DNA from: Acidobacteriota bacterium
GTDB lineage: Bacteria > Acidobacteriota > UBA6911
Direction: 5' to 3'
NCBI GenBank assembly: GCA_963664705.1
Contig: OY761556.1
Span: forward strand, 1,408,001-1,472,000
DNA length: 64,000 nucleotides
Positions 17,120 through 64,000 of the stretch are shown here, piece after piece (the first letter of the stretch is position 1; each line of letters starts with the position of its first letter). A program made the position numbers and the translations under genes. The notes beneath the pieces are model-generated. The model did not search any database. It worked only from the letters and a program-made list of their open reading frames with translations, and was not told the DNA's origin.

Positions 17120-17308
17120 AGAAAGGTCGACAATTATTCCTGCGCTGGGTCGAACCCAATCCCAGCCCCGGCAGGGGGCGATTAGAAAGGTCGACAATTA
17201 TTCCTAAGCTGGGTCGAACCCAATCCCAGCCCCGGCAGGGGGCGATTAGAAAGGTCGACAATTATTCCTAAGCTGGGTCGAACCCAATCCCAGCCCCGGC
17301 AGGGGCGG
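17120..17308. repeat. Three tandem 64-bp repeats running into a REP
   Basis: AGAAAGGTCGACAATTATTCCT..GCTGGGTCGAACCCAATCCCAGCCCCGGCAGGGG starts at 17120, 17184 and 17248; no spacers. Confidence 0.9.
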
Positions 17309-25904: not shown

Positions 25905-26335
25905 CCTAATGCTGATTGTCTTTTTTCGGACGTTTTTCTTTCGCCCCTTCAGGGCTTGTTACTGGTCTAATCCAATCCAGGGGTTCGCTGCGCTCACCCC
26001 TGGCTACTTGCTTTCGGCCCTCCGGGCCTGATTTTTGTTCCCTCTTTTGGGGCCGCCTCCGGGGCTGAATCTATGTTCCACCTATTTTCTGGCATGCCCT
26101 CCGTGCCTGGAGCTTTGTTCCATCTACACGAAGCGCCGAAGGCGCAAAAGGTAGCGGTCCTGGGCGAGCTTGCGAGCCCGGGCTATGTTCGCGGTTCAAA
26201 GAGCTCCGAAAGCGCCGGAGGCGCGGAAGAAAGTAGCCAGGGGTGAGCGGAGCGAACCCCTGGTAGAGATAAGCCTGAGAAAGAGCCCTGAAGGGGCGAA
26301 AGAACCGCAATTACAAAAAAACAAATTGCATTATT
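25905..26335. repeat. Composite REP element bounded by TAATGC...GCATTA
   Basis: Minus REP 25942-26030, type-2 REP 26133-26183, plus REP 26212-26302. Confidence 0.8.
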
Positions 26336-31724: not shown

Positions 31725-32418
31725 GGCCCGGAGGGCTGAAAGAACGTAGCCGGGGGTGAAGCGAAGCGAACCCCCGGATAGCATGAAAGTAAAAGGAACC
31801 CCGGAGGGGTGAAAGATCCATGGCAATTACCATAGATACCTTTCGTCAAACTCGACTCCATTTTCCCGCAGCAGCTCAATGTACTCTTCTTGAAATGTTT
31901 TAAGTCGATGGTGTTCCTTTTGCCGCGCTATGTAGGATCTTAGTGGGTCCAACCCTAAACGACTGACAGAATAGGCGCCATAGCCGTCTTGCCACTCAAA
32001 TGATCGAATGCCAACGTGTTGATGAATCCATGCTGATGAGCTCGATTTTAGTTCTCGAAGGATGTCCGATATTCGATGGGTGGGTTTGAGGCAAGCAAGT
32101 AAGTGCACATGCTCGATGCATCCTCCAATCGTGTCCGGCAATGCCCCGATGTTGCGGAGGGTACCGCCAAGGTAGGCATGTAAGCGTGATTCCCATGCGT
32201 CCTTGATCCAGGCAAGTCGTCCTTTGGTGCTGAAAACGAAATGAAAATAGAGACTTGAGTGCGTTGATGGCATATTCGTTCCTCCACCTACCTAATGAGG
32301 AACCTTGGGAAAGTGCCAACAATTTCTGTCGCCCCGCTGGGGCTTGTTTCCGAATCAACCTAATCCGGGGGTTCGCTTCGCTCACCCCCGGCTACGTTCT
32401 GAACACCCCTCCGGGGTT
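31725..32418. mobile_element. RAYT/REPtron-like locus: Y1 transposase gene between inverted REPs
   Basis: Plus REP 31725-31816 and minus REP 32326-32418 directly flank the tnpA gene; no tnpB. Confidence 0.75.
31827..32273 (-). CDS. tnpA: IS200/IS605-family Y1 HUH transposase (REP-associated)
   Basis: HFVFSTK.R, EHVHL (HUH), K..SS, WQDGYGAYSVS, YIARQ (catalytic Tyr), FDERYLW. Confidence 0.9.
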   Translation of the reverse strand: MPSTHSSLYFHFVFSTKGRLAWIKDAWESRLHAYLGGTLRNIGALPDTIGGCIEHVHLLACLKPTHRISDILRELKSSSSAWIHQHVGIRSFEWQDGYGAYSVSRLGLDPLRSYIARQKEHHRLKTFQEEYIELLRENGVEFDERYLW

Positions 32419-32442: not shown

Positions 32443-32571
32443 CGGGTCATTGCGGCGACGATGCGTGATATTGGCACACGTTTGCCGGGTCATTGCGGGG
32501 GCGATGCGTGATATTGGCACACGTTTGCCGGATCATTGCGGGGGCGATGCGTGATATTGGCACACGGTTGC
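32443..32571. repeat. Three tandem 43-bp repeats next to the REP
   Basis: TCATTGCGG..CGATGCGTGATATTGGCACACG at 32447, 32490 and 32533. Confidence 0.88.
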
Positions 32572-45045: not shown

Positions 45046-47178
45046 ATGGCGGAATCGAACTATACAAAGCTGGATGCATTTTTCAATCCTACTTCCATTG
45101 CAGTCGTGGGGGCTTCAACCAAGCCGCATACGGTCGGCAACGACCTTTTGCGCAATCTTATCTTTCACGAGTTCAACGGATCGGTTTATCCGATCAATCC
45201 GAAGGCCCAATCGATATTGGGCATCCATGCCTATCCCAGTCTGAAGGATCTCCCGGCGCCGGTGGATCTCATCTGTGTCGCGGTGCCGGCGCAGACTGTT
45301 CTGGAGGTGGTGCGGCAGGCGTCTGAAATCGGTGTGAAAGCGATGGTGCTGCTTTCGGCCGGGTTCAAGGAGTCGGGCCAGGAAGGGATCGAGCTGGAGC
45401 AGAAGCTGCGGCGGGCGGTGCGGGATGCGGGGATTGCGCTCATCGGGCCCAATTGCCTGGGCATCATCAACACGGACCCGCGGGCCAGTCTCAATGCCAC
45501 GTTTGCCCGCAAGATGCCGCATGCGGGGAACCTGGCGTTCATTTCGCAGAGCGGGGCGCTCTGCACCTCGGTGCTCGACTATGCCGAGGAGCGGCGGATG
45601 GGATTCAGCAAGTTTGTGAGTTTCGGCAACAAGGCCGACGTCAATGAAATCGATCTGCTTTCCTATCTGGCGGAGGACGAGAACACGCATGTCATCGCGA
45701 TGTACCTGGAGGACATCAGCAACGGTCGGGCATTTATCGAGACGGCTCGGGAAGTTTTCTGGCGCACGGGCAAGCCGATGCTTTGCCTCAAATCCGGGCG
45801 TTCGCCGGAGGGGGCGAAGGCGGTGAGCAGCCACACCGGCTCGCTGGCGGGATCGGACAACGTTTACGATGCCATCATGATGCAAAGCGGTGTGGAGCGT
45901 GTGGACAAGATTTCCGAGCTGTTCGACTATGCGGCGCTTTACACGACGCAGCCAATGCCGAAGGGGAATCGGTTGGCCATTATCACCAATGCCGGCGGCC
46001 CGGGGATTATGGCGACGGATGCCGCGGTGCGTGCCGGCCTGAAGCTGGCCACCTTGTCGGCCGCCACGAAGGACAAACTGCGTTCGGGGCTTCCGGCTGC
46101 GGCGGCGCTGGGTAATCCGGTGGATGTGATCGGCGATGCCCGCGCCGATCGTTACCAGGTGGCGGTGCGCACGGTGCTGGAGGATCCGGATGTCGACATG
46201 GGGCTGGTGATCCTGACTCCGCAGTCGATGACGGAGATCGAGGGGACGGCCAGGATTATCCCGGAAGCGCTGCGGGGGTTGAACAAACCGGTCGCCTGCT
46301 CCTTCATGGGGGCCAGGGATGTTACGGCGGGCGTGGAACTCCTGCGGGGCGCCGGCGTTCCCAATTATCCTTTTCCGGAGGATGCGGTGCTGGCGCTGGC
46401 GGCGGCCGAGCGTCTGTCGTCCACGCTGGAAATGGCCGATCGGGAGGAAGTGACGTTCAAGGATCACGACGTGGCCCGGGCTCGGCGCATTGTCGCGGAC
46501 GCGCTGGCGGGGCGCGAGGAAAAATACCTGACGCAATCCGAGTGCCGTCCGCTGCTGGAATGCTATCAATTTCCGCTGCTCTTCAGCCGCATGGCGACGA
46601 GTGCGGAAGAAGCGTCCGGAATTGTCGAGCAGTTCGGGCGTACCGTCGTGATGAAGATCATGTCGCCGGACGTCGTCCACAAGCTGGATGCGGGCGGGGT
46701 TTTGCTCGGCATCCGCGGGGCGGAAGAGGCAGCCAACGCCTACAACCGGATTGTGACAAACGTAAAACAATCCGTTCCGAACGCTCAGATTCAGGGTGTT
46801 CTGATTGAAGAAATGGCTTCGAAGGGGGTGGAGGTCATCCTGGGTGCGACAAAAGATCCGAGGTTCGGGTCGCTGCTCATGTTCGGACTGGGCGGCTCTT
46901 TTGTCGAGGTGTTCAAGGATGTGACATTTCGGCTGGCGCCCATGTGGCGTGCCTCCGCGCACCGGATGGTGCAGCAGATCCGCGCCTTCAAAATCCTGAC
47001 GGGAGTGCGCGGCGCGCCGCCGTCCGATCTGTCGGCGCTGGAGGATGTCCTGCTGAGGCTTTCCGCGCTGGTGGTCGATAACCCGGAGATATCCGAACTG
47101 GATATCAACCCGCTGATCGTCCACCCGGAAGGGCAGGGCTGCTCCGTTGCCGACAGCCGCATCCTGCTAAAACGTTGA
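45046..47178 (+). CDS. Acetate/acyl-CoA ligase (ADP-forming), fused alpha-beta
   Basis: IAVVGAS, YPINP, GPNCLG, ISQSGA, SHTGSLAG (phospho-His), NPVD, HKLDAGGV, ELDINP. Confidence 0.9.
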   Translation: MAESNYTKLDAFFNPTSIAVVGASTKPHTVGNDLLRNLIFHEFNGSVYPINPKAQSILGIHAYPSLKDLPAPVDLICVAVPAQTVLEVVRQASEIGVKAMVLLSAGFKESGQEGIELEQKLRRAVRDAGIALIGPNCLGIINTDPRASLNATFARKMPHAGNLAFISQSGALCTSVLDYAEERRMGFSKFVSFGNKADVNEIDLLSYLAEDENTHVIAMYLEDISNGRAFIETAREVFWRTGKPMLCLKSGRSPEGAKAVSSHTGSLAGSDNVYDAIMMQSGVERVDKISELFDYAALYTTQPMPKGNRLAIITNAGGPGIMATDAAVRAGLKLATLSAATKDKLRSGLPAAAALGNPVDVIGDARADRYQVAVRTVLEDPDVDMGLVILTPQSMTEIEGTARIIPEALRGLNKPVACSFMGARDVTAGVELLRGAGVPNYPFPEDAVLALAAAERLSSTLEMADREEVTFKDHDVARARRIVADALAGREEKYLTQSECRPLLECYQFPLLFSRMATSAEEASGIVEQFGRTVVMKIMSPDVVHKLDAGGVLLGIRGAEEAANAYNRIVTNVKQSVPNAQIQGVLIEEMASKGVEVILGATKDPRFGSLLMFGLGGSFVEVFKDVTFRLAPMWRASAHRMVQQIRAFKILTGVRGAPPSDLSALEDVLLRLSALVVDNPEISELDINPLIVHPEGQGCSVADSRILLKR

Positions 47179-47482
47179 GACGTTGGACGTGGGGACGTTG
47201 CACGTTGGACGTTGGGACGTTGGACGATGGGCCGTTAGCCGTTGGGACGTTGGACGTTAAGCCATTGCACGTTCCCACGTCCTACGTCCAAACGCCCAAC
47301 GTCCAACGTGCAACGTGCAACGTCCCAACGTGCAACGTCCCCAACGTCCAACGTTCCAACGTTTCCACGTCCAACGTCCCAACGTCTAACGTCCAACGTT
47401 CCAAACGTGCAACGTCCAACGTTCCAACGTTTCCCGCGTCCAACGTCTGTGATAACCTATTTCTTTCGAGGAAAAGTGCTTC

Positions 47483-49687
47483 ATGGTATACGTGCCCTAT
47501 TCGTTGAATTCGGTGCAGCCCGGCTCGGACCTGTTGGAGAAAATCGGCGCGGGACTGCCTCCCGCCGACGAGGCGCGGCTTCGTCGCGCGGCCGAATTTA
47601 TCGCGCCGATTTATGCCGGCAAGACCCTGGGGACGGGGGAGGAAATTTCGCGGCATGTTTTCGGCATGGCGTTGATCACAGCCGCGTTGAGGCTGGATGC
47701 GGACACGCGCATCGCGGCACTGCTCTTTGCCGTGCCGCAGTTGAATCCCGGGGCGCACGAGCGGATCCGGCAGGAATTCAACCCGCACGTTGACGGGCTT
47801 GTCGACGGGCTGCATCGGCTGAATGGCTTGCGTCTCATCGCTCCATCGCCGGCCTCGAGCCTCCGCGATGTCCGGACGCAGCCGGAAGTTCTGCGCAAGA
47901 TGGTGTTGGCTCTGGTGGAGGACATCCGCGTAGTGCTTCTACGCCTGGCCAGCCGGACCCAGACGCTGCGGTATTACATCGACAACCCCTGTGCCGAACG
48001 GGAGGAAACGGCGCGGGAGTCCCTGGATATCTATGCGCCGCTGGCCAACCGATTGGGTGTGTGGGAAATCAAATGGGAAATCGAAGATTTGAGTTTCCGT
48101 TTTCTCGACCCGGACACTTACCGGCAGATTGCGCGTCAGGTCGATGAGCGGCGCCAGGAGCGCGAGCTTTTCATTGCGCAGGCCATCGCGCTGCTGAAGG
48201 AGCAGTGCGAGTCGGTTGGGATCAAAGCGGAGATTTACGGCAGGCCGAAGCATTTTTACAGCATCTGGAAGAAGATGCGCGCCAAGCAGGTCCCGCTCGA
48301 GCAGGTCTATGATATCCGCGCGATCCGCGTAATTGTCGACCAGGTTCGCGATTGCTATACCGTGCTTGGTATCGTGCACCAGATGTGGACGCCGGTTGCC
48401 AAGGAATTCGACGACTACATTACGAAACCCAAGGGGAACCTTTACCAGTCGCTCCACACGGCGGTGATGGCCGAGGACCGTCGTCCGCTCGAAGTGCAGA
48501 TCCGCACATGGGAAATGCATGAGCATGCCGAGCTGGGCGTGGCCGCGCACTGGCGCTACAAGGAAGGGACTCGCGCGACCGGCAAAAAGGATGCCTATGA
48601 TGACAAGGTCGCGCTGCTGCGCGAACTGCTTTCGTGGCGCGACGAAATTGCGGACGCGTCCAACTGGATCGAGCAGTTTAAGCGGGCCGCGCTGGACGAT
48701 ACGATTTATATCATGACGCCGCAAGGCCGCGTTGTCGACCTGCCCCGCGGTGCCACGCCGATCGATTTTGCTTACTGTGTCCATACTGAAATCGGAAACC
48801 GGTGCCGTGGCGCCAAAGTGGATGGTGTTTTGGTGGCGCTGAATAAGCCACTGATGTCCGGGCAGACCGTTGAAATCGTGGCAGCCAAACAAGGAGGGCC
48901 GTCGCGCGACTGGCTCAACCCCCAGCTCGGCTATGTCCAGACGTCCAGGGCACGTCACAAGATCAAACAGTATTTTACCGCGCTCGATGAATCGCAGACG
49001 ATGGCGGACGGGCGCGGCGCTGTGCTGCGCGAACTGCAGCGCGAGGGGGCCACGCAGTCCAATATTGAGGATCTCGGGAAGAAACTTGGATATGACGGTG
49101 CCGAGGCCATGTTCCTTGCAGCCGGCCGCGGCGAGCTGAGCGCGCGCGCCATCCAGCAGGCACTGCGACCCGAGGACGAAAAGCAGGAGGCGGCCCCGGA
49201 GTTCGTGCCGCGCAAAAGCAAAGCCGGGAAAAATGACGGGCTGCTCATTGTCGGCATGGATAAGCTGCTGACCCAGTTGGGACGCTGCTGCAAACCAGCC
49301 CCGCCTGATCCGATCCAGGGATATATTACGCGCGGCAAGGGGATTTCCATTCATCGGACGCAATGTCCGAACTTTGCCGGGATGGCACGCCTGAACCCGG
49401 AGCGCGTGATTGCTGCCGACTGGGGCGAGGCACAGGCGCAACAAACGGGTGGAGCCGCCTATCCGGTCGACATTATCGTCGATTGCGCCGACCGCACGGG
49501 ATTACTGCGCGATATTACCGAGGTGCTTTCCAGGGAATCCATCAATGTGACCTCGGTCAATACGATGACGCGGCAGGGAACGGCTAGCCTGCACTTCACG
49601 ATCGAGGTCACCGGCATCGCGCAGCTTCAGCGCGCATTGATGCTGATCGGCGATGTCCCGTCGGTGATCACCGCCCGCCGCGTCTGA
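47483..49687 (+). CDS. relA: RelA-type (p)ppGpp synthetase with TGS and ACT domains and an inactive hydrolase
   Basis: YAPLANRLG, GRPKH.YSI, EFDDYI..PK.N.YQSLHT, EVQIRT, TP.DFAY, CCKP, DRTGLL; HD replaced by LLFA. Confidence 0.9.
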   Translation: MVYVPYSLNSVQPGSDLLEKIGAGLPPADEARLRRAAEFIAPIYAGKTLGTGEEISRHVFGMALITAALRLDADTRIAALLFAVPQLNPGAHERIRQEFNPHVDGLVDGLHRLNGLRLIAPSPASSLRDVRTQPEVLRKMVLALVEDIRVVLLRLASRTQTLRYYIDNPCAEREETARESLDIYAPLANRLGVWEIKWEIEDLSFRFLDPDTYRQIARQVDERRQERELFIAQAIALLKEQCESVGIKAEIYGRPKHFYSIWKKMRAKQVPLEQVYDIRAIRVIVDQVRDCYTVLGIVHQMWTPVAKEFDDYITKPKGNLYQSLHTAVMAEDRRPLEVQIRTWEMHEHAELGVAAHWRYKEGTRATGKKDAYDDKVALLRELLSWRDEIADASNWIEQFKRAALDDTIYIMTPQGRVVDLPRGATPIDFAYCVHTEIGNRCRGAKVDGVLVALNKPLMSGQTVEIVAAKQGGPSRDWLNPQLGYVQTSRARHKIKQYFTALDESQTMADGRGAVLRELQREGATQSNIEDLGKKLGYDGAEAMFLAAGRGELSARAIQQALRPEDEKQEAAPEFVPRKSKAGKNDGLLIVGMDKLLTQLGRCCKPAPPDPIQGYITRGKGISIHRTQCPNFAGMARLNPERVIAADWGEAQAQQTGGAAYPVDIIVDCADRTGLLRDITEVLSRESINVTSVNTMTRQGTASLHFTIEVTGIAQLQRALMLIGDVPSVITARRV

Positions 49688-50785
49688 TCCGCGCTTCCGG
49701 GGTTCCGGGCAAATAATGTGCGACATTGGGCGTCTTGCCGACAAGGGCGTGGACGCTTCCATCGCGCCGATGTCGACGGGATGGCCAATGCCACATATTG
49801 ATTGTTCTAATCGCTGTGACGCGAGGGAAGCAACCGGCCCGGCGCCCGAAAGAACGTAGCCGGGGCTGATGCCTTGCGATTGTGCTTTAGCTCTTCGGTC
49901 TGGGTCTGATTCGCGGTTCCGGCTTCCTCGGATAAATAATGTGTGACATTGGGCGTCTGGCCGGCAAGGGCGTGGACGCTTCCATCGCGCCGATGTCGAC
50001 GGGATGAGCAATGCTGCATATTAATTGTTCTAAGCGCTGTGATGCGAGGGAAGCAACCGGCGCGGAGGGCCCGAAAGAACGTAGCCGGGGCTAGGCTTTC
50101 GTGATGCCTTGCGATTGTGCATTAGCTCTTCGGTCTGGGTCTGATCCTCGGTTCCGGCTTCCTCAGATAAATAATGTGCGACATTGGGCGTCTGGCCGGC
50201 AAGGGCGTGGACGCTTCCATAGCGCCGGTGTCGACGGGATGGCCAATGCCACATATTATTTGCTCTAAGCGCTGTGACGCGAGGGAAACAACAGGCCCGG
50301 AGGGCCCAAAAGAACGTAGCCGGGGGTGAAGCGAACCCCCGGCATAGATAAGCGGGAGAAAGAGCCCCGGCTAGGGGCGAAAGATCAGCATTCTGCCGCC
50401 CCGCTGGGGCTTGTTACATGCCTAATCCAATCCGGGGGTTCGCTTCGCTTCACCCCCGGCTACGTTCTGACCGCCCCTGCCGGGGCTGATGCCTTGCGAT
50501 TGTGCATTAGCTTTTCGGTCTGGGTCTGATTCGCGGTTCCGGCTTCCTCGGGCAAATAATGTGTGACATTGGGCGTCTGGCCGACAAGGGCGTGGACGCT
50601 TCCATCGTGCCGATGTCGACGGGATGGCCAATGCCACATATTATTTGCTCCAAGCGCTGTGACGCGAGGGAAGCAACCAGCCCGGAGGGCCCGAAAGAAC
50701 GTAGCCGGGGGTGAAGCGAAGCGAACCCCCGGTATAGATAAGCGGGAGAAAGAGCCCCGGCTAGGGGCGAAAGATCAGCACGGCG
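49685..50785. repeat. Four tandem ~220-385-bp units carrying REP parts (BIME-like array)
   Basis: AAATAATGTG.GACATTGGGCGTC... recurs at 49711, 49934, 50169 and 50554; each unit runs into GAAAGAACGTAGCCGGGG. Confidence 0.9.
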
Positions 50786-55056: not shown

Positions 55057-55497
55057 TCAACGTCCAACGTCCCAACGTCCAACGTCCCAACGTCCCAACG
55101 TCCAACGTCAACGTCCCCACGTCCAACGTCCAACGTCCCAACGTCCCAACGTCCCCAACGTCCAACGTCCAACGTCCCAACGTTCAACGTCCCAACGTCC
55201 CCAACGTCCAACGTCCCAACGTTCAACGTCCCAACGTCCAACGTCCAACGTTTCAGCGTCCAACGTTCAACGTCAACGTCCCCACGTCCAACGTCCAACG
55301 TCCCAACGTCCCAACGTCCAACGTCCCAACGTCCAACGTTCAACGTCCCAACGTTCAACGTCCCAACGTCCCAACGTCCAACGTCCCAACGTCCCAACGT
55401 CCAACGTTCAACGTCCCAACGTCCAACGTCCAACGTCCAACGTTTCAGCGTCTCAACGTCCCCAACGTCCAACGTTCAACGTTCAACGTTCAACGTT
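55057..55497. repeat. Long irregular AACGTC(C)n array
   Basis: About 440 bp of AACGTCC/AACGTCCC/AACGTTC units; overlaps the stop codon of the minus-strand gene at 55483. Confidence 0.95.
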
Positions 55498-60202: not shown

Positions 60203-60251
60203 GAAGCACCCCCCTGCTGAAGCTATTATCCCGCGAATCGATCCCGCCGGC

Positions 60252-60675
60252 AACGTCCAACGTCCCAACGTCCAACGTCCAACGTCCCAACGTCCAACGT
60301 CCAACGTCCCAACGTCCCAACGTCCCAACGTCCCAACGTCCAACGTCCCAACGTCCAACGTCCCAACGTCCAACGTCCAACGTCCCAACGTCCAACGTCC
60401 AACGTCCCAACGTCCCAACGTCCAACGTCCCAACGTCCAACGTCCAACGTCCAACGTCCCAACGTCCCAACGTCCAACGTTTCAACGTCCAACGTCCAAC
60501 GTCCCAACGTCCAACGTCTCAACGTCCCAACGTCTCAACGTCTCAACGTCCAACGTCCCAACGTCCCAACGTCCAACGTCCCAACGTCCAACGTCCAACG
60601 TCCCAACGTCCAACGTCCCAACGTCCAACGTCTCAACGTCCAACGTCCAACGTCCAACGTCCAACGTCCCACGTT
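60252..60675. repeat. Long irregular AACGTC(C)n array
   Basis: About 420 bp of AACGTCC/AACGTCCC/AACGTCTC units starting right after the stop codon of the minus-strand gene at 60676. Confidence 0.95.
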
Positions 60676-61569
60676 TCATCGTCCAACCGAAACCAGGTAC
60701 CAGAATGCCGTGGTGCCGAGGGAGATCAACGTTCCGACGCTGACCATCAGGTTTGCGAGCCGCGGATTGAGTTTGTACTCCGATGCCAGGATGGCGGACG
60801 TGATCATCGGAGCCATCGCCGCTTCCAGAATGCTGGCCCGCGCCGGGAATCCTCGCACGCCGAAGACGAGCGCAGCGCCGAACACCAGTGCCGGCGCGAT
60901 CAGCAGTTTATAGGCCAGACCGGCCGACAGGCACTTTACCTCGCGTTTCCATTCCGAAAAGTGAATCTGGAGCCCGACGGAAAAGAGTGCCAGGGGCACA
61001 AGCGTGTTTCCCAGGCGCGTCAGCAGTGGGACCACAGGATCGAGGCTGACAAATCGCGGGAGGATGAGCGCCAGCGCAAAGGCCGCAAAAGGCGGGAATC
61101 TCACCAGGGTTTTCAAAACACCTTTTTGTGCGGTGCTGTGTGACGCCCGCAGGGCGGTCATGACGCCAAAAGCCGAGAGGACGATGAAGTTGACCTGGTC
61201 GCAGATCACGGCAATGCGAAGCCCTTCGTGTCCCAGGTAGGCTTCCGTGAGCGGGAAGCCGATAAAAGACGTGTTTCCGAGTCCCGCGGTCAGGAGCAGG
61301 GCGGCCTGGGTCTGTTTGTCCGGCGAAATTCTGTTGCCGAAAAACTTCAGTGCGGTCCAGGCGACCAGCCAGAGCCCCACCGGCATGGCGGCCGGAAGGA
61401 TCAGCGACGTGCTCCACTCGATTGCGGGGATATACAGCAGCGACATGGAGGGCAGCGCAATATACAGAATCCACGCATTGATGCCTTTGTGCGCGTTTTC
61501 GGGAAGCGTTCCGGTTGAGCGCAGAATCAGGCCCGCCACAAGACAAACCGCTATCAGAACAAAATTCAT
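60676..61569 (-). CDS. AEC (auxin efflux carrier) family transporter
   Basis: YIALP, GNTSFIGFP, PLALFSVG, KLLIAP, LEAAMAP. Confidence 0.88.
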   Translation of the reverse strand: MNFVLIAVCLVAGLILRSTGTLPENAHKGINAWILYIALPSMSLLYIPAIEWSTSLILPAAMPVGLWLVAWTALKFFGNRISPDKQTQAALLLTAGLGNTSFIGFPLTEAYLGHEGLRIAVICDQVNFIVLSAFGVMTALRASHSTAQKGVLKTLVRFPPFAAFALALILPRFVSLDPVVPLLTRLGNTLVPLALFSVGLQIHFSEWKREVKCLSAGLAYKLLIAPALVFGAALVFGVRGFPARASILEAAMAPMITSAILASEYKLNPRLANLMVSVGTLISLGTTAFWYLVSVGR

Positions 61570-62265: not shown

Positions 62266-62515
62266 AGAAAATTACGAATTACGATTGACGAATGACGAAT
62301 TGTGAGAAGCGCGCGGATCTCATTGGTCGGGCCTCTGCAATTTATCCGCATTTCTGGAATAACCCAAACCGATAAAATCAACGCAAGCAAAGCGCCGGAG
62401 GCGCGGCAGATAGTAGACATAATGGAGTGATCGGTCTCTAGCATGTAATATCGTGGGTTACAGCTGAAGTCGTGGTGACAAAGCTGCAGAGCCATAAAAC
62501 ATGAGGAGACCGATC

Positions 62516-63610
62516 ATGGCAGATTGTATCACTTGGGTAGGGATGGATGATTCAGCAAAAAAGATAAACGTCGCAGTTTTTCGCGGGCAGGAAAGTAACC
62601 CACGAGAAGAACTTGTTGTATCAAACGACAGTACGGGGCTGGGGCGATTAGCGAAAAAGCTAAGGGCATTTGAAGATGATGTACGGTGCGTCTACGAAGC
62701 GGGCGTTAATGGATACTATTTGCAGCGCTATTTGGCCAAACATGGGATTTCTTGTGAGGTTGCGGCCCCTTCGTTGACCCCGAGACGAGCGGGGAAAAAA
62801 GTAAAAACGGATAAGCTGGATGCGAAAGCCCTGGGCAAATTGTACCGAGCGGGAGAACTAACATGTATTGTGATCCCGCAAAAAGAACAGGAAAGTCTGC
62901 GAGATCTAGTGCGCGCGCGAGAAGACGCATTGGAAGACCAGCAGCGAGCACGGCATCGATTAGCACGGTTTCTGATGCGACGTGGATTGAAATATCCGCA
63001 GGGCAAGAACTGGTCGCTTGGGCACCTAAAATGGATTAAGAGCCTTGTGTTTGAGGATGATGGGGATCAAACAGTACTGGAGGAATATCGACAGGCGCTT
63101 GAGCAACAGACGGAGCGGTTGAAAAAATTCCAGGAAAAAATCGAGGAAGTTGCAAAACAGCCGAACTATCAAAAGCGAGTCAGCTATTTGATGGCGCTAA
63201 AAGGTGTTCAGGTTCTGACGGCGATGACGATTATCGCAGAAGCGCTCGATTTAAGACGGTTCGTTGATGCGCCTTCGTTTATGGCCGCTATTGGGGTGGT
63301 GCCTTCGGAAAGCAGCTCAGGTGAACTTGAAAGACGGGGAAGGATAACCAAAACGGGAAACAGCCACCTACGTAGGGTGCTGATCGAAAGCGCCTGGCAC
63401 TACCGTCATTCTTCAGTAGCTGGCAAAACTCTCAAGAAACGACGAGAGTGTTTGCCGGCAGAAGTTATCGAGATTGCACAACGTTGCGATAAGCGATTGA
63501 ATCAAAAATTCCGACGCATGCTCAACCGAGGGAAAGAAAGACAAAAGATCGCGGTTGCGGTAAGTCGAGAATTGGCAGGATTTATCTGGGCTATCGGTCG
63601 TGTTGCATGA
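62516..63610 (+). CDS. IS110-family DEDD recombinase/transposase
   Basis: GMD, YEAG and KTDKLDA (DEDD RuvC-like); G..PSE.SSG catalytic Ser loop; ITKTGN..LR..L.E.AW; RBS GAGGAG. Confidence 0.95.
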   Translation: MADCITWVGMDDSAKKINVAVFRGQESNPREELVVSNDSTGLGRLAKKLRAFEDDVRCVYEAGVNGYYLQRYLAKHGISCEVAAPSLTPRRAGKKVKTDKLDAKALGKLYRAGELTCIVIPQKEQESLRDLVRAREDALEDQQRARHRLARFLMRRGLKYPQGKNWSLGHLKWIKSLVFEDDGDQTVLEEYRQALEQQTERLKKFQEKIEEVAKQPNYQKRVSYLMALKGVQVLTAMTIIAEALDLRRFVDAPSFMAAIGVVPSESSSGELERRGRITKTGNSHLRRVLIESAWHYRHSSVAGKTLKKRRECLPAEVIEIAQRCDKRLNQKFRRMLNRGKERQKIAVAVSRELAGFIWAIGRVA

Positions 63611-63682
63611 CATAAGGCACCAGCTCTTGCAGCTATTTTGTTCTTCAATGGATTAATAACGGAAACATTCGGTTAGTGAACG

Positions 63683-63865
63683 GAACAGGAGATCGAGTTC
63701 CAGGCTTCGAAAGGAGAAACCTCGACCTGGCTATGTTGGTATGGGAAACCAGAATCCACGGAAGTAGAGTGAGGCCGCTCCCGATGAATCAGTTGTCATG
63801 CGTGCTTATCGACCCGCGAATATCAGATTGATTATCGTCGCTGTTGCCAACTCGATCCCCTGTTC
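63683..63865 (+). ncRNA. Bridge RNA / seekRNA of the IS1111-type element
   Basis: Closing helix 63683-63699/63849-63865 (16/17 paired); target guides CCTGGCTA and AAGTAG; donor guide ATATCAGA. Confidence 0.75.
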
Positions 63866-64000
63866 TTTTTACTGGCTGATTTATTTATGAACCGAAGAAA
63901 ACCAAAATGAACGAACAAGGAACGGATTGATTGTACTTGACCGATCACTCCATATCAGCCAGGGGTGAGCGTAGCGAACCCCTGGACTAGGATCAGGAAT

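What the first reader, a model, noticed from the sequence alone, without database searches (positions are those of the whole stretch)
62391..63990. IS1111-type element whose bridge RNA is programmed against the host's own REP family
Seen: removing 62417-63958 rebuilds GCGCCGGAGGCGCGGCAGATAGT-AG-CCAGGGGTGAGCGTAGCGAACCCCTGG, nearly identical to the intact REP at 26212-26262, so the IS split a REP at its GTAG|CC motif with an AG core at both junctions. In the ~350-bp non-coding right end, a 16/17-bp helix (63683-63699/63849-63865) encloses CCTGGCTA (63726-63733, reverse complement of target TAGCCAGG), AAGTAG (63762-63767, the left target half as in AAGTAGCCAGG at 26231), ATATCAGA (63820-63827, the predicted circle junction cATATC-AG-Acataa) and TGTC (63794-63797, a short right donor match). 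Established: IS110/IS1111 recombinases use a bispecific RNA to pair target and donor, and several members target REPs. Inference: this is an intact RNA-guided recombinase with an AG core, and target, donor and guides are all readable within the window.
Basis: partly seen in the sequence, partly recalled or inferred. Interest (0 to 1): 0.88.

Follow-up and report, generated by a model that had tools for sequence, protein, structure and literature searches.

The report
REP-targeting IS1111-group bridge recombinase element
This is a multi-copy jumping gene of the known IS110/IS1111 family that sits almost always at one spot in the host's hairpin repeats; it likely finds that spot with a built-in guide RNA whose letters change in step with the target across relatives, so it is a well-supported but ordinary new member of the bridge-RNA recombinases.

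Summary
Confirmed, and a known kind. The 1,542-bp element (62417-63958) encodes an IS110-family DEDD/Ser recombinase, with 15-bp subterminal inverted repeats, 7/3-nt end extensions and an AG core. The genome holds 11 full copies: 10 at the same point of a GTAG-tagged hairpin repeat, 1 at a non-repeat site that largely fits the guides. Occupied repeats favour the CCAGG variant that the guide matches (9 of 10, against 42 of 140 empty ones). In 34 homologue clusters the predicted guides covary with each element's own target and donor; 46 of 60 guide changes between sister elements are mirrored in the target. Corrections: the last A of ATATCAGA tracks the target (handshake-like), not the donor; the AG core looks like IS621's CT core read on the other strand (inferred); the protein groups with ISEc45/ISSso6, outside IS1111 proper. 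The target repeat matches Rfam Acido-Lenti-1 and flanks the genome's only Y1 transposase; the scan noted that link before on other DNA. REP targeting (ISPa11, ISPpu9, IS621), an AG core (ISPpu9) and a predicted bridge RNA in this branch (ISCARN28) are in print. Expression and activity are untested.

The parts
62391..62416 (+). Left half of the split repeat: first hairpin, then the GTAG tag (62413-62416), whose AG (62415-62416) is the left copy of the core
   Evidence: weak Rfam RF01687 match on the minus strand (21.7 bits, below cut-off 37)
62417..62421 (+). Left terminal extension (5 nt; 7 with the AG core); donor sequence right of the core in the circle
   Evidence: 7/3 rule from PMC11187229
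62422..62436 (+). Left subterminal inverted repeat, 15 bp, perfect match to 63939-63953
62418..62423 (+). Predicted -10 box (CATAAT) of the promoter formed on circularisation, 17 nt from the -35 box at 63937-63942
   Evidence: junction computed; function inferred
62428..62516 (+). Predicted leader hairpin: 62428-62438 is complementary to 62506-62516 and would cover the ribosome-binding site and start codon
   Evidence: a perfect complement of 7 nt or more found in 30 of 34 clusters, nearly always over the start region; no shuffle control run
62516..63610 (+). IS110-family recombinase, 364 aa; D11, E61, D99, D102 and S268 align with the catalytic residues of IS621
   Evidence: Pfam PF01548 + PF02371; NCBIfam NF033542 209.7 bits, cut-off 140; alignment to 8wt6; positions
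63683..63865 (+). Outer helix (63683-63699 with 63849-63865) enclosing the predicted bridge RNA
   Evidence: not recovered in the consensus fold of homologues
63720..63774 (+). Predicted target-binding stem-loop with internal loop
   Evidence: three helices, 8 of their 12 pairs with compensatory changes
63726..63733 (+). Guide complementary to the plus-strand target: five bases right of the core, the core and one base left of it
   Evidence: 31, 29, 25, 28, 20 of 34 at +1..+5 (about 9-11 expected); 28 of 34 at -1 (18.6 expected)
63762..63769 (+). Guide identical to the left target plus core (63762-63767), then two handshake-like bases (63768-63769) that follow the donor
   Evidence: 33, 32, 19, 17 of 34 at -1..-4; 63769 matches donor +2 in 20 of 34 (11.7 expected)
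63782..63840 (+). Predicted donor-binding stem-loop with internal loop
   Evidence: two helices, 2 of their 10 pairs with compensatory changes, 4 with one-sided changes
63794..63797 (+). Short guide complementary to donor +1..+3 and the G of the core
   Evidence: +3 21 of 34 (12.7 expected), +2 28 of 34 (17.8 expected), +1 not informative
63820..63828 (+). Guide identical to the left donor plus core (63820-63826), then handshake-like positions 63827-63828
   Evidence: 63823 matches in 34 of 34 including all 3 variant donors; 63827 follows target +1 in 9 of 33 (3.6 expected); 63828 shows no signal
63937..63958 (+). Predicted -35 box (63937-63942), right subterminal inverted repeat (63939-63953), 3-nt extension (63954-63956), right copy of the AG core (63957-63958)
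63959..63985 (+). Right half of the split repeat: the main hairpin; an inverted partner repeat lies just beyond the window end
26212..26263 (+). Intact copy of the target repeat
   Evidence: RF01687 29 bits on the minus strand, below cut-off
31827..32273 (-). The genome's only Y1 (IS200/RAYT-like) transposase gene found, 148 aa, bracketed by two inverted copies of the target repeat (tags at 31746 + and 32395 -); likely the repeat's mobiliser

Best explanation
This is an IS110-family insertion sequence with IS1111-group ends, present in 11 full copies, whose right end likely makes a two-loop bridge RNA that would steer its recombinase to the AG of the GTAG tag in the host's hairpin repeats. Shown: the boundaries, core, copies, insertion sites, catalytic residues, the conserved two-stem-loop fold and the guide-DNA covariation. 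Inferred from IS621, ISEc11 and ISPpu9: the element excises as a circle by recombining its two AG cores; joining the ends creates a promoter (-35 from the right end, -10 from the left, 17 nt apart); the transcript yields recombinase and bridge RNA; the first loop pairs with both strands of the target (about 4 nt left, core, 5 nt right), the second with both strands of the circle junction; a recombinase tetramer exchanges strands at the core and inserts the element in one orientation with no bases added. The layout likely equals that of IS621 read on the opposite DNA strand (AG = CT reversed). About 10-11 specified bases are enough to confine it mostly to the repeats, which are intergenic and numerous (150 counted).
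For: Copies: 11 full, 99-100% identical, same junctions, same orientation in the repeat; depth in public contigs about 11 times the flank (71.7 vs 6.46; 172.6 vs 16.4, possibly the source sample). Variant choice: 9 of 10 occupied repeats are AG-CCAGG against 42 of 140 empty ones, one-sided Fisher p = 0.00027. The one non-repeat site keeps core and all five right-hand bases. Homologues: of 178 loci, 121 had both ends, 113 with AG at both. An unbiased scan of 5,687 RNA-column x DNA-position tests put the predicted guide pairs in the top 9 ranks, and 6 of them in the top 6 at stricter clustering (15 clusters). Between 30 disjoint sister pairs, 46 of 60 guide changes were matched in both targets. 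Fold: 95% of cells paired, 101 compensatory cells vs 33 in shuffles and at most 40 in slid controls. The IS621 template (PMC11208160 supplement 7) has the same order of guide, core and handshake slots, including a donor guide that pairs with only one core base and is followed by ATG.
Against: No RNA, circle or activity was observed: no circle joint in 3 contig sets, and the one raw-read run laid nothing. 14 of 60 sister-pair guide changes were not matched, and only 11 of 20 pairs were fully concordant. Nine-base matches outside repeats are unoccupied (0 of 29 vs 9 of 43 inside; p = 0.007), so selection against insertion in genes or a role for the hairpin is not excluded; with ten bases the difference is untestable (3 sites outside). 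The left guide adds no detectable preference inside this genome (-3 position: 8 of 10 vs 78 of 140, p = 0.12). Base 63827 is an A that would pair with the donor before strand exchange, the arrangement that crippled IS621 (G166A, PMC11208158), yet 24 of 33 clusters have it, so the IS621 handshake rules do not transfer cleanly. Donor-left invariance is partly built into my search pattern.
Confidence: 0.92

Rival explanations
1. Target-only seekRNA model: only the first loop acts as a guide, as a short processed RNA, while the donor ends are read by the protein through the 15-bp inverted repeats.
For: PMC11187229 reports that an 82-nt target-matching RNA suffices for ISEc11. Donor covariation here rests on few variable columns and weakens at strict clustering (63823: 139 of 2,000 permutations as high with 15 clusters).
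Against: The second loop is as conserved as the first; all 3 variant donors at -2 are mirrored at 63823, and donor +2/+3 covary.
Confidence: 0.12
2. The RNA guide sets the sequence, but the repeat's hairpin or a repeat-binding protein adds to site choice.
For: 0 of 29 nine-base matches outside repeats are occupied vs 9 of 43 inside; ISPpu9 needed its 3' REP fragment for circle formation (PMC12288879 passages).
Against: One copy sits at a site with no such hairpin; 26 of 31 homologue clusters with enough flank show no perfect hairpin after the core; counter-selection in genes predicts the same pattern.
Confidence: 0.2
3. The matches are relics or chance: the protein alone recognises the repeat and the right end is a terminator-like structure.
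For: Short motifs; TGTC occurs in 65% of shuffles.
Against: Guide columns are the most variable part of a conserved scaffold and change with the target across phyla and between elements over 95% identical.
Confidence: 0.02

Closest known systems
ISEc45 / ISSso6 / ISCARN28 branch (labelled IS1111 in PMC11187229 source data)
   Same: Nearest named transposases: ISSso6 38%, ISEc45 36%; one clade at 100/99 support. Right-end non-coding region. ISCARN28 is 44% identical to both and is one of six elements with a predicted bridge RNA in PMC11208160 Extended Data Fig. 10 (legend only).
   Different: Different target and host repeat. I found no experimental study of this branch in the held library. I could not compare with ISCARN28's sequence or see the figure.
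ISPa11, ISEc11, ISKpn4, IS4321 (IS1111 proper; seekRNA, PMC11187229)
   Same: Subterminal inverted repeats with 7/3-nt extensions, downstream RNA region, top-strand match before bottom-strand match, junction promoter; ISPa11 targets REPs.
   Different: Transposase only about 25-27% identical to IS4321, ISShdy1, ISPsy16, IS5708, which form their own 100/100 clade without it; 364 aa vs 330-350; GV-P motif instead of GL-P.
IS621 / ISCro4 bridge recombinases (PMC11208160, PMC11208158)
   Same: Catalytic D-E-D-D plus Ser; two internal loops; guide-core-handshake layout; REP target (IS621).
   Different: RNA in the right end, long inverted repeats, core reads AG on the gene's strand, shorter guides, and an A at the position equivalent to IS621 G166; proteins only distantly related (E about 5e-7).
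ISPpu9 of Pseudomonas putida (PMC12288879)
   Same: [quoted passage not shown]
   Different: IS110 group without inverted repeats; not compared at sequence level here.
Rfam RF01687 Acido-Lenti-1 and GTAG REPs / REPtrons (PMC2864571, PMC3733652, PMC6006769)
   Same: The target repeat scores over the Rfam cut-off at 12 of 36 listed places in this genome, has a GTAG tag before a hairpin, and brackets a Y1 transposase with the Y---Q--HH signature of subclass 1.2.
   Different: Rfam lists it as an RNA of unknown function; the subclass 1.2 section describes no flanking repeats. Mobilisation by the Y1 enzyme is inferred.

Membership tests
IS110 family (broad) | [quoted passage not shown] | tested here: met
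IS110 family (broad) | Short core at both junctions, fixed site and orientation, no longer duplication | tested here: met
   11 of 11 copies; 113 of 121 loci with both ends have AG at both
IS110 family (broad) | Circular intermediate with junction promoter | tested here: inconclusive
   -35/17/-10 arrangement predicted; no circle joint in contigs, which drop rare forms
IS1111 group | Subterminal inverted repeats with 7-nt left and 3-nt right extensions | tested here: met
   15 bp perfect; 7 and 3 (rule)
IS1111 group | Long non-coding region downstream of the gene | tested here: met
   99 nt left vs 348 nt right
IS1111 group | Top-strand complement precedes bottom-strand match in the RNA | tested here: met
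   63726-63733 before 63762-63767 (rule)
IS1111 group, strict sense of PMC11187229 (transposase related over its full length to IS1111) | Transposase inside the tight IS1111 cluster, 330-350 aa, GL-P----S/TG motif | tested here: not met
   Outside the 100/100 clade of IS4321, ISShdy1, ISPsy16, IS5708 and two unnamed rows; 364 aa; GV-P motif. IS1111 itself was not in the tree, and whether the two clades are sisters is unresolved. The same paper's table still labels ISEc45, ISSso6 and ISCARN28 IS1111.
Bridge RNA | Two stem-loops with internal loops, supported by compensatory changes | tested here: met
Bridge RNA | Loop segments covary with both strands of target and donor | tested here: met
   strong for target, moderate for donor
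Bridge RNA | Handshake bases pair with the opposite substrate after exchange | tested here: inconclusive
   63768-63769 follow the donor and 63827 follows the target when it is not A, but 63828 shows no signal and this element itself fits only 1 of 4 by Watson-Crick pairing
Bridge RNA | Expressed, bound by the recombinase, reprogrammable | not testable with these tools
   no RNA holder listed
Bridge RNA | Match to a curated covariance model | tested here: inconclusive
   No Rfam match in the right end; the published bridge-RNA models were not available
GTAG-type REP (the target) | GTAG tag 5' of a GC-rich hairpin, many dispersed copies, often in inverted pairs | tested here: met
   150 copies by pattern; listing
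GTAG-type REP (the target) | Flanks a REP-associated tyrosine transposase | tested here: inconclusive
   Flanks the single Y1 gene; 16 of 30 homologous loci show tagged hairpins on both sides, no control run; the protein scores as IS200-like (55.8 bits, cut-off 55), not as a named RAYT model

The most novel reading that the evidence does not exclude
The ISEc45/ISSso6 branch carries an IS621-type bridge RNA that reads its DNA on the opposite strand, so the 'reversed guide order' said to separate IS1111 from IS110 elements is only a strand flip of one CT/AG core mechanism. Because the core reads AG, several lineages have independently landed on the AG of REP tags and retuned their guides to each host's hairpin stem, here down to choosing one repeat variant. 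The branch thrives with a handshake base that inhibits IS621, which would make it a natural test of the handshake rule and an untested source of compact programmable recombinases.
Probability: 0.5. Interest if true: 0.55.

Novelty: new member of a known kind. Interest (0 to 1): 0.37.

Why it matters
Bridge recombinases are of active interest as genome-editing tools, and this is a cleanly annotated example from a branch for which I found no experiments: ends, core, four guides and 11 natural insertion sites are all readable, with dozens of naturally reprogrammed relatives. It gives ready tests of whether IS1111-type and IS110-type guides are one mechanism on opposite strands and of how general the handshake rule is. 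It also ties the orphan Rfam motif Acido-Lenti-1 to REP biology as an insertion target. None of this changes the known picture: REP targeting, AG cores and right-end bridge RNAs are already described.

Tried and rejected
Rfam search of the right end: no RNA family. Sequencing runs: no RNA holder listed, which is no evidence on expression. Reads and contigs: no circle joint; one contig in one run skips the element (24 letters on the short side, laid at 90% likeness), which may be another repeat copy, so I do not count it as excision; a stricter re-laying could not be obtained, so this stays open. Viral contigs: no relative of the Y1 gene. Solo copies of the RNA region: none beyond the 11 elements. 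Promoter scan of the linear element: 2 sites, chance level. Rejected: that ATATCAGA pairs as eight bases with the junction; that guides reach -5 or +6/+7; that REP targeting is the rule in the branch (5 of 31 clusters, against 40 of 2,124 control AG sites). One search queried the wrong stretch and gave nothing of use. The plasmid copies of ISSso6 and ISEc45 fetched had disrupted ends, so their cores and targets were not read. A look-up of earlier findings by this protein gave nothing. Structure prediction was not run because the family is plain from sequence.

Full report
Observation. The element is 1,542 bp counting one AG core. The rebuilt empty site matches the intact repeat at 26212-26263 in 49 of 52 positions. 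The ends carry perfect 15-bp subterminal inverted repeats with 7 nt outside on the left (core included) and 3 on the right, the rule given for IS1111 elements in PMC11187229. The gene (62516-63610, 364 aa) hits PF01548, PF02371 and NF033542 above cut-off, and its D11, E61, D99, D102 and S268 align with the IS621 catalytic residues. Joining the ends places TTGACC 17 nt from CATAAT, a predicted junction promoter.

Copies in the genome. There are 11 full copies, 99-100% identical, plus one copy cut down to 90 bp of left end; they are the only PF01548 matches. One has a premature stop. The predicted guides are invariant across copies. Ten full copies and the truncated one sit after the GTAG tag of the same hairpin repeat, all in one orientation; one full copy sits outside any repeat at a site that keeps the core, the five right-hand bases and one left-hand base, with one wobble and one mismatch further left. 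With the elements removed in silico, a pattern search found 150 repeats, 10 occupied. Nine of the 10 are the AG-CCAGG variant, against 42 of 140 empty ones (p = 0.00027), as the guide predicts; the left guide shows no significant preference at -3 (p = 0.12). Nine-base matches outside repeats are unoccupied (0 of 29 vs 9 of 43), which may reflect extra guide bases, selection or the hairpin. Copies may descend from one another, so these p values are indicative only.

Homologues. I examined 178 loci, 11 of them this genome's copies. Both ends were found through the inverted repeats in 121; 113 have AG on both sides, 6 have AG left with AA or AC right, 2 have other letters. I dropped those 2, one distant locus (L078) and 11 without the RNA anchor, leaving 107; 97 had 7 or more flanking bases on both sides; they form 34 clusters at 90% RNA identity and 15 at 80%. 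Target flanks played no part in the selection; the left donor bases did, through the search pattern. A scan of 5,687 column-by-position tests ranked the predicted guide pairs in the first nine places; with 15 clusters the six top places were still target-guide pairs, while donor pairs weakened. Per position: 63730 to 63726 are complementary to target +1 to +5 in 31, 29, 25, 28 and 20 of 34 (about 9-11 expected); 63765 to 63762 equal target -1 to -4 in 33, 32, 19 and 17 of 34; no signal at +6, +7 or -5. For the donor, 63823 matches in 34 of 34 including all three variants, and 63795 and 63794 match +2 and +3 in 28 and 21 of 34.

Fold. The consensus of the 34 clusters is two stem-loops with internal loops that leave the guides unpaired; 10 of 22 pairs show compensatory change, with 101 such cells against 33 in shuffles and 9-40 in slid controls. 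The long outer helix folds in this element but was not recovered in the consensus.

Strand-flip reading (inference). AG is CT on the other strand. Read that way, the order of guide, core and handshake slots matches the IS621 template in supplement 7 of PMC11208160, including a donor guide that pairs with one core base only and is followed by ATG. The two bases after the second target guide follow the donor (34 of 34, nearly invariant, and 20 of 34 vs 11.7), and the base after the second donor guide follows the target (9 of 33 vs 3.6; by inspection, 8 of the 9 non-A letters match), as handshake bases should (PMC11208158 passages). Against a simple transfer: 63828 shows no signal, and 24 of 33 clusters, this one included, have an A at 63827 that would pair with the donor before exchange, like the inhibitory G166A change in IS621. 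PMC11187229 treats the reversed order as a family difference. My searches found no statement of the strand-flip reading, but I could not see the figures of PMC11208160, where ISCARN28's guides are drawn, and most subscription papers are not held.

Family. The nearest named transposases are ISSso6 (38%) and ISEc45 (36%). In a 37-row tree the window's protein lies with them in a 100/99 clade, apart from the 100/100 clade of IS4321, ISShdy1, ISPsy16 and IS5708 (25-27% identity); deeper order is unresolved, and IS1111, IS621 and ISCARN28 were not in the tree. The source data of PMC11187229 label ISEc45, ISSso6 and ISCARN28 as IS1111 and give ISCARN28 44% identity to both. So the element is IS1111-group by anatomy and database label, but not IS1111 proper by protein.

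The target repeat. It has a GTAG tag before a GC-rich hairpin, occurs in inverted pairs, and matches Rfam Acido-Lenti-1 over the cut-off at 12 of 36 listed places (only 150 of 1,448 candidates were scored). The genome's single Y1 transposase match lies in this window at 31827-32273, bracketed by two inverted copies; 16 of 30 homologous loci show tagged hairpins on both sides (no control). Its Y---Q--HH motif fits subclass 1.2 of PMC6006769. Calling the repeat a REP is therefore reasonable; its spread by that enzyme is inferred. Eight earlier notes of this scan report the same link in other genomes; I had reached it before that look-up. REP-like targets are a minority in the branch: 5 of 31 clusters show a perfect hairpin right after the core (control 40 of 2,124), including relatives at about 60% identity with the same right-hand guide and the same kind of repeat. 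The guide is thus not unique to this host.

What is not shown. No RNA run holds the region and no circle joint was seen; neither is evidence against activity.

Papers seen. PMC11208160: passages, legends, supplement searches and part of supplement 7; one PDF supplement unreadable, one cut, and its Supplementary Table 5 not seen, which may bear on the grouping. PMC11187229: parts 1-5 of 9 and supplement rows. PMC11208158, PMC13626964, PMC12288879, PMC2864571, PMC3733652, PMC13604230: passages. PMC6006769: passages and one section. bioRxiv 10.64898/2026.10.21.760802: passages and section 2.4, which reports guide predictions for 32,190 bridge RNAs and still calls Acido-Lenti-1 of unknown function; its supplements were not seen, and this branch may be among its models.

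Verdict. It is a new member of a described kind; the modest extras are variant-level repeat choice, the strand-flip reading and the handshake anomaly. Interest 0.37.

Noticed in passing
window 31827-32273 (-), repeats at 31746 and 32395: The genome's only Y1 transposase match, bracketed by inverted copies of the Acido-Lenti-1-like repeat, in a REPtron-like layout; homologues often have their own tagged hairpins on both sides.
   Followed up: partly
window 62428-62438 with 62506-62516: The left inverted repeat region is complementary to the ribosome-binding site and start codon, and the complement is kept with changed sequence in 30 of 34 clusters; probably damps translation.
   Followed up: partly
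G000:C1:4126129-4126219: Truncated copy: 90 bp of left end joined directly to the repeat's hairpin at a short shared motif, apparently a deletion that removed gene and right end.
   Followed up: partly
G000:C1 copies: The 11 copies fall into two sub-lineages (3 and 8) that differ at about 12 positions in the gene and leader but not in the guides; one copy has a premature stop.
   Followed up: no
window 60251-60687, 55058-55496, 47172-47447 and a dozen shorter places: Many arrays of a 7-8-nt unit around ACGTT (up to about 59 copies), scattered through the window.
   Followed up: no
window 62266-62302: A short low-complexity repeat (units like ACGAAT) just after the efp gene; related words occur 28-71 times in the genome and many contigs pile on it.
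   Followed up: no
window 17120-17305, 32443-32571, 49682-50326: Tandem repeats of 64, 43 and 235 bp; the first and third lie next to or include parts of the REP-like repeat.
   Followed up: no
L001 and L087-L092, right end: A second, unrelated hairpin-rich segment of roughly 250 bp lies between the gene and the bridge RNA, lengthening these elements to about 1,808 bp.
   Followed up: no
L008-L024, L031-L032, L068, L130: Near-identical elements in Dehalococcoidia genomes carry different guides and matching different targets: natural reprogramming within one lineage.
   Followed up: partly
L126, L005, L006: One sub-lineage's guide matches a different palindromic repeat family (right flank GATGAC).
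   Followed up: no
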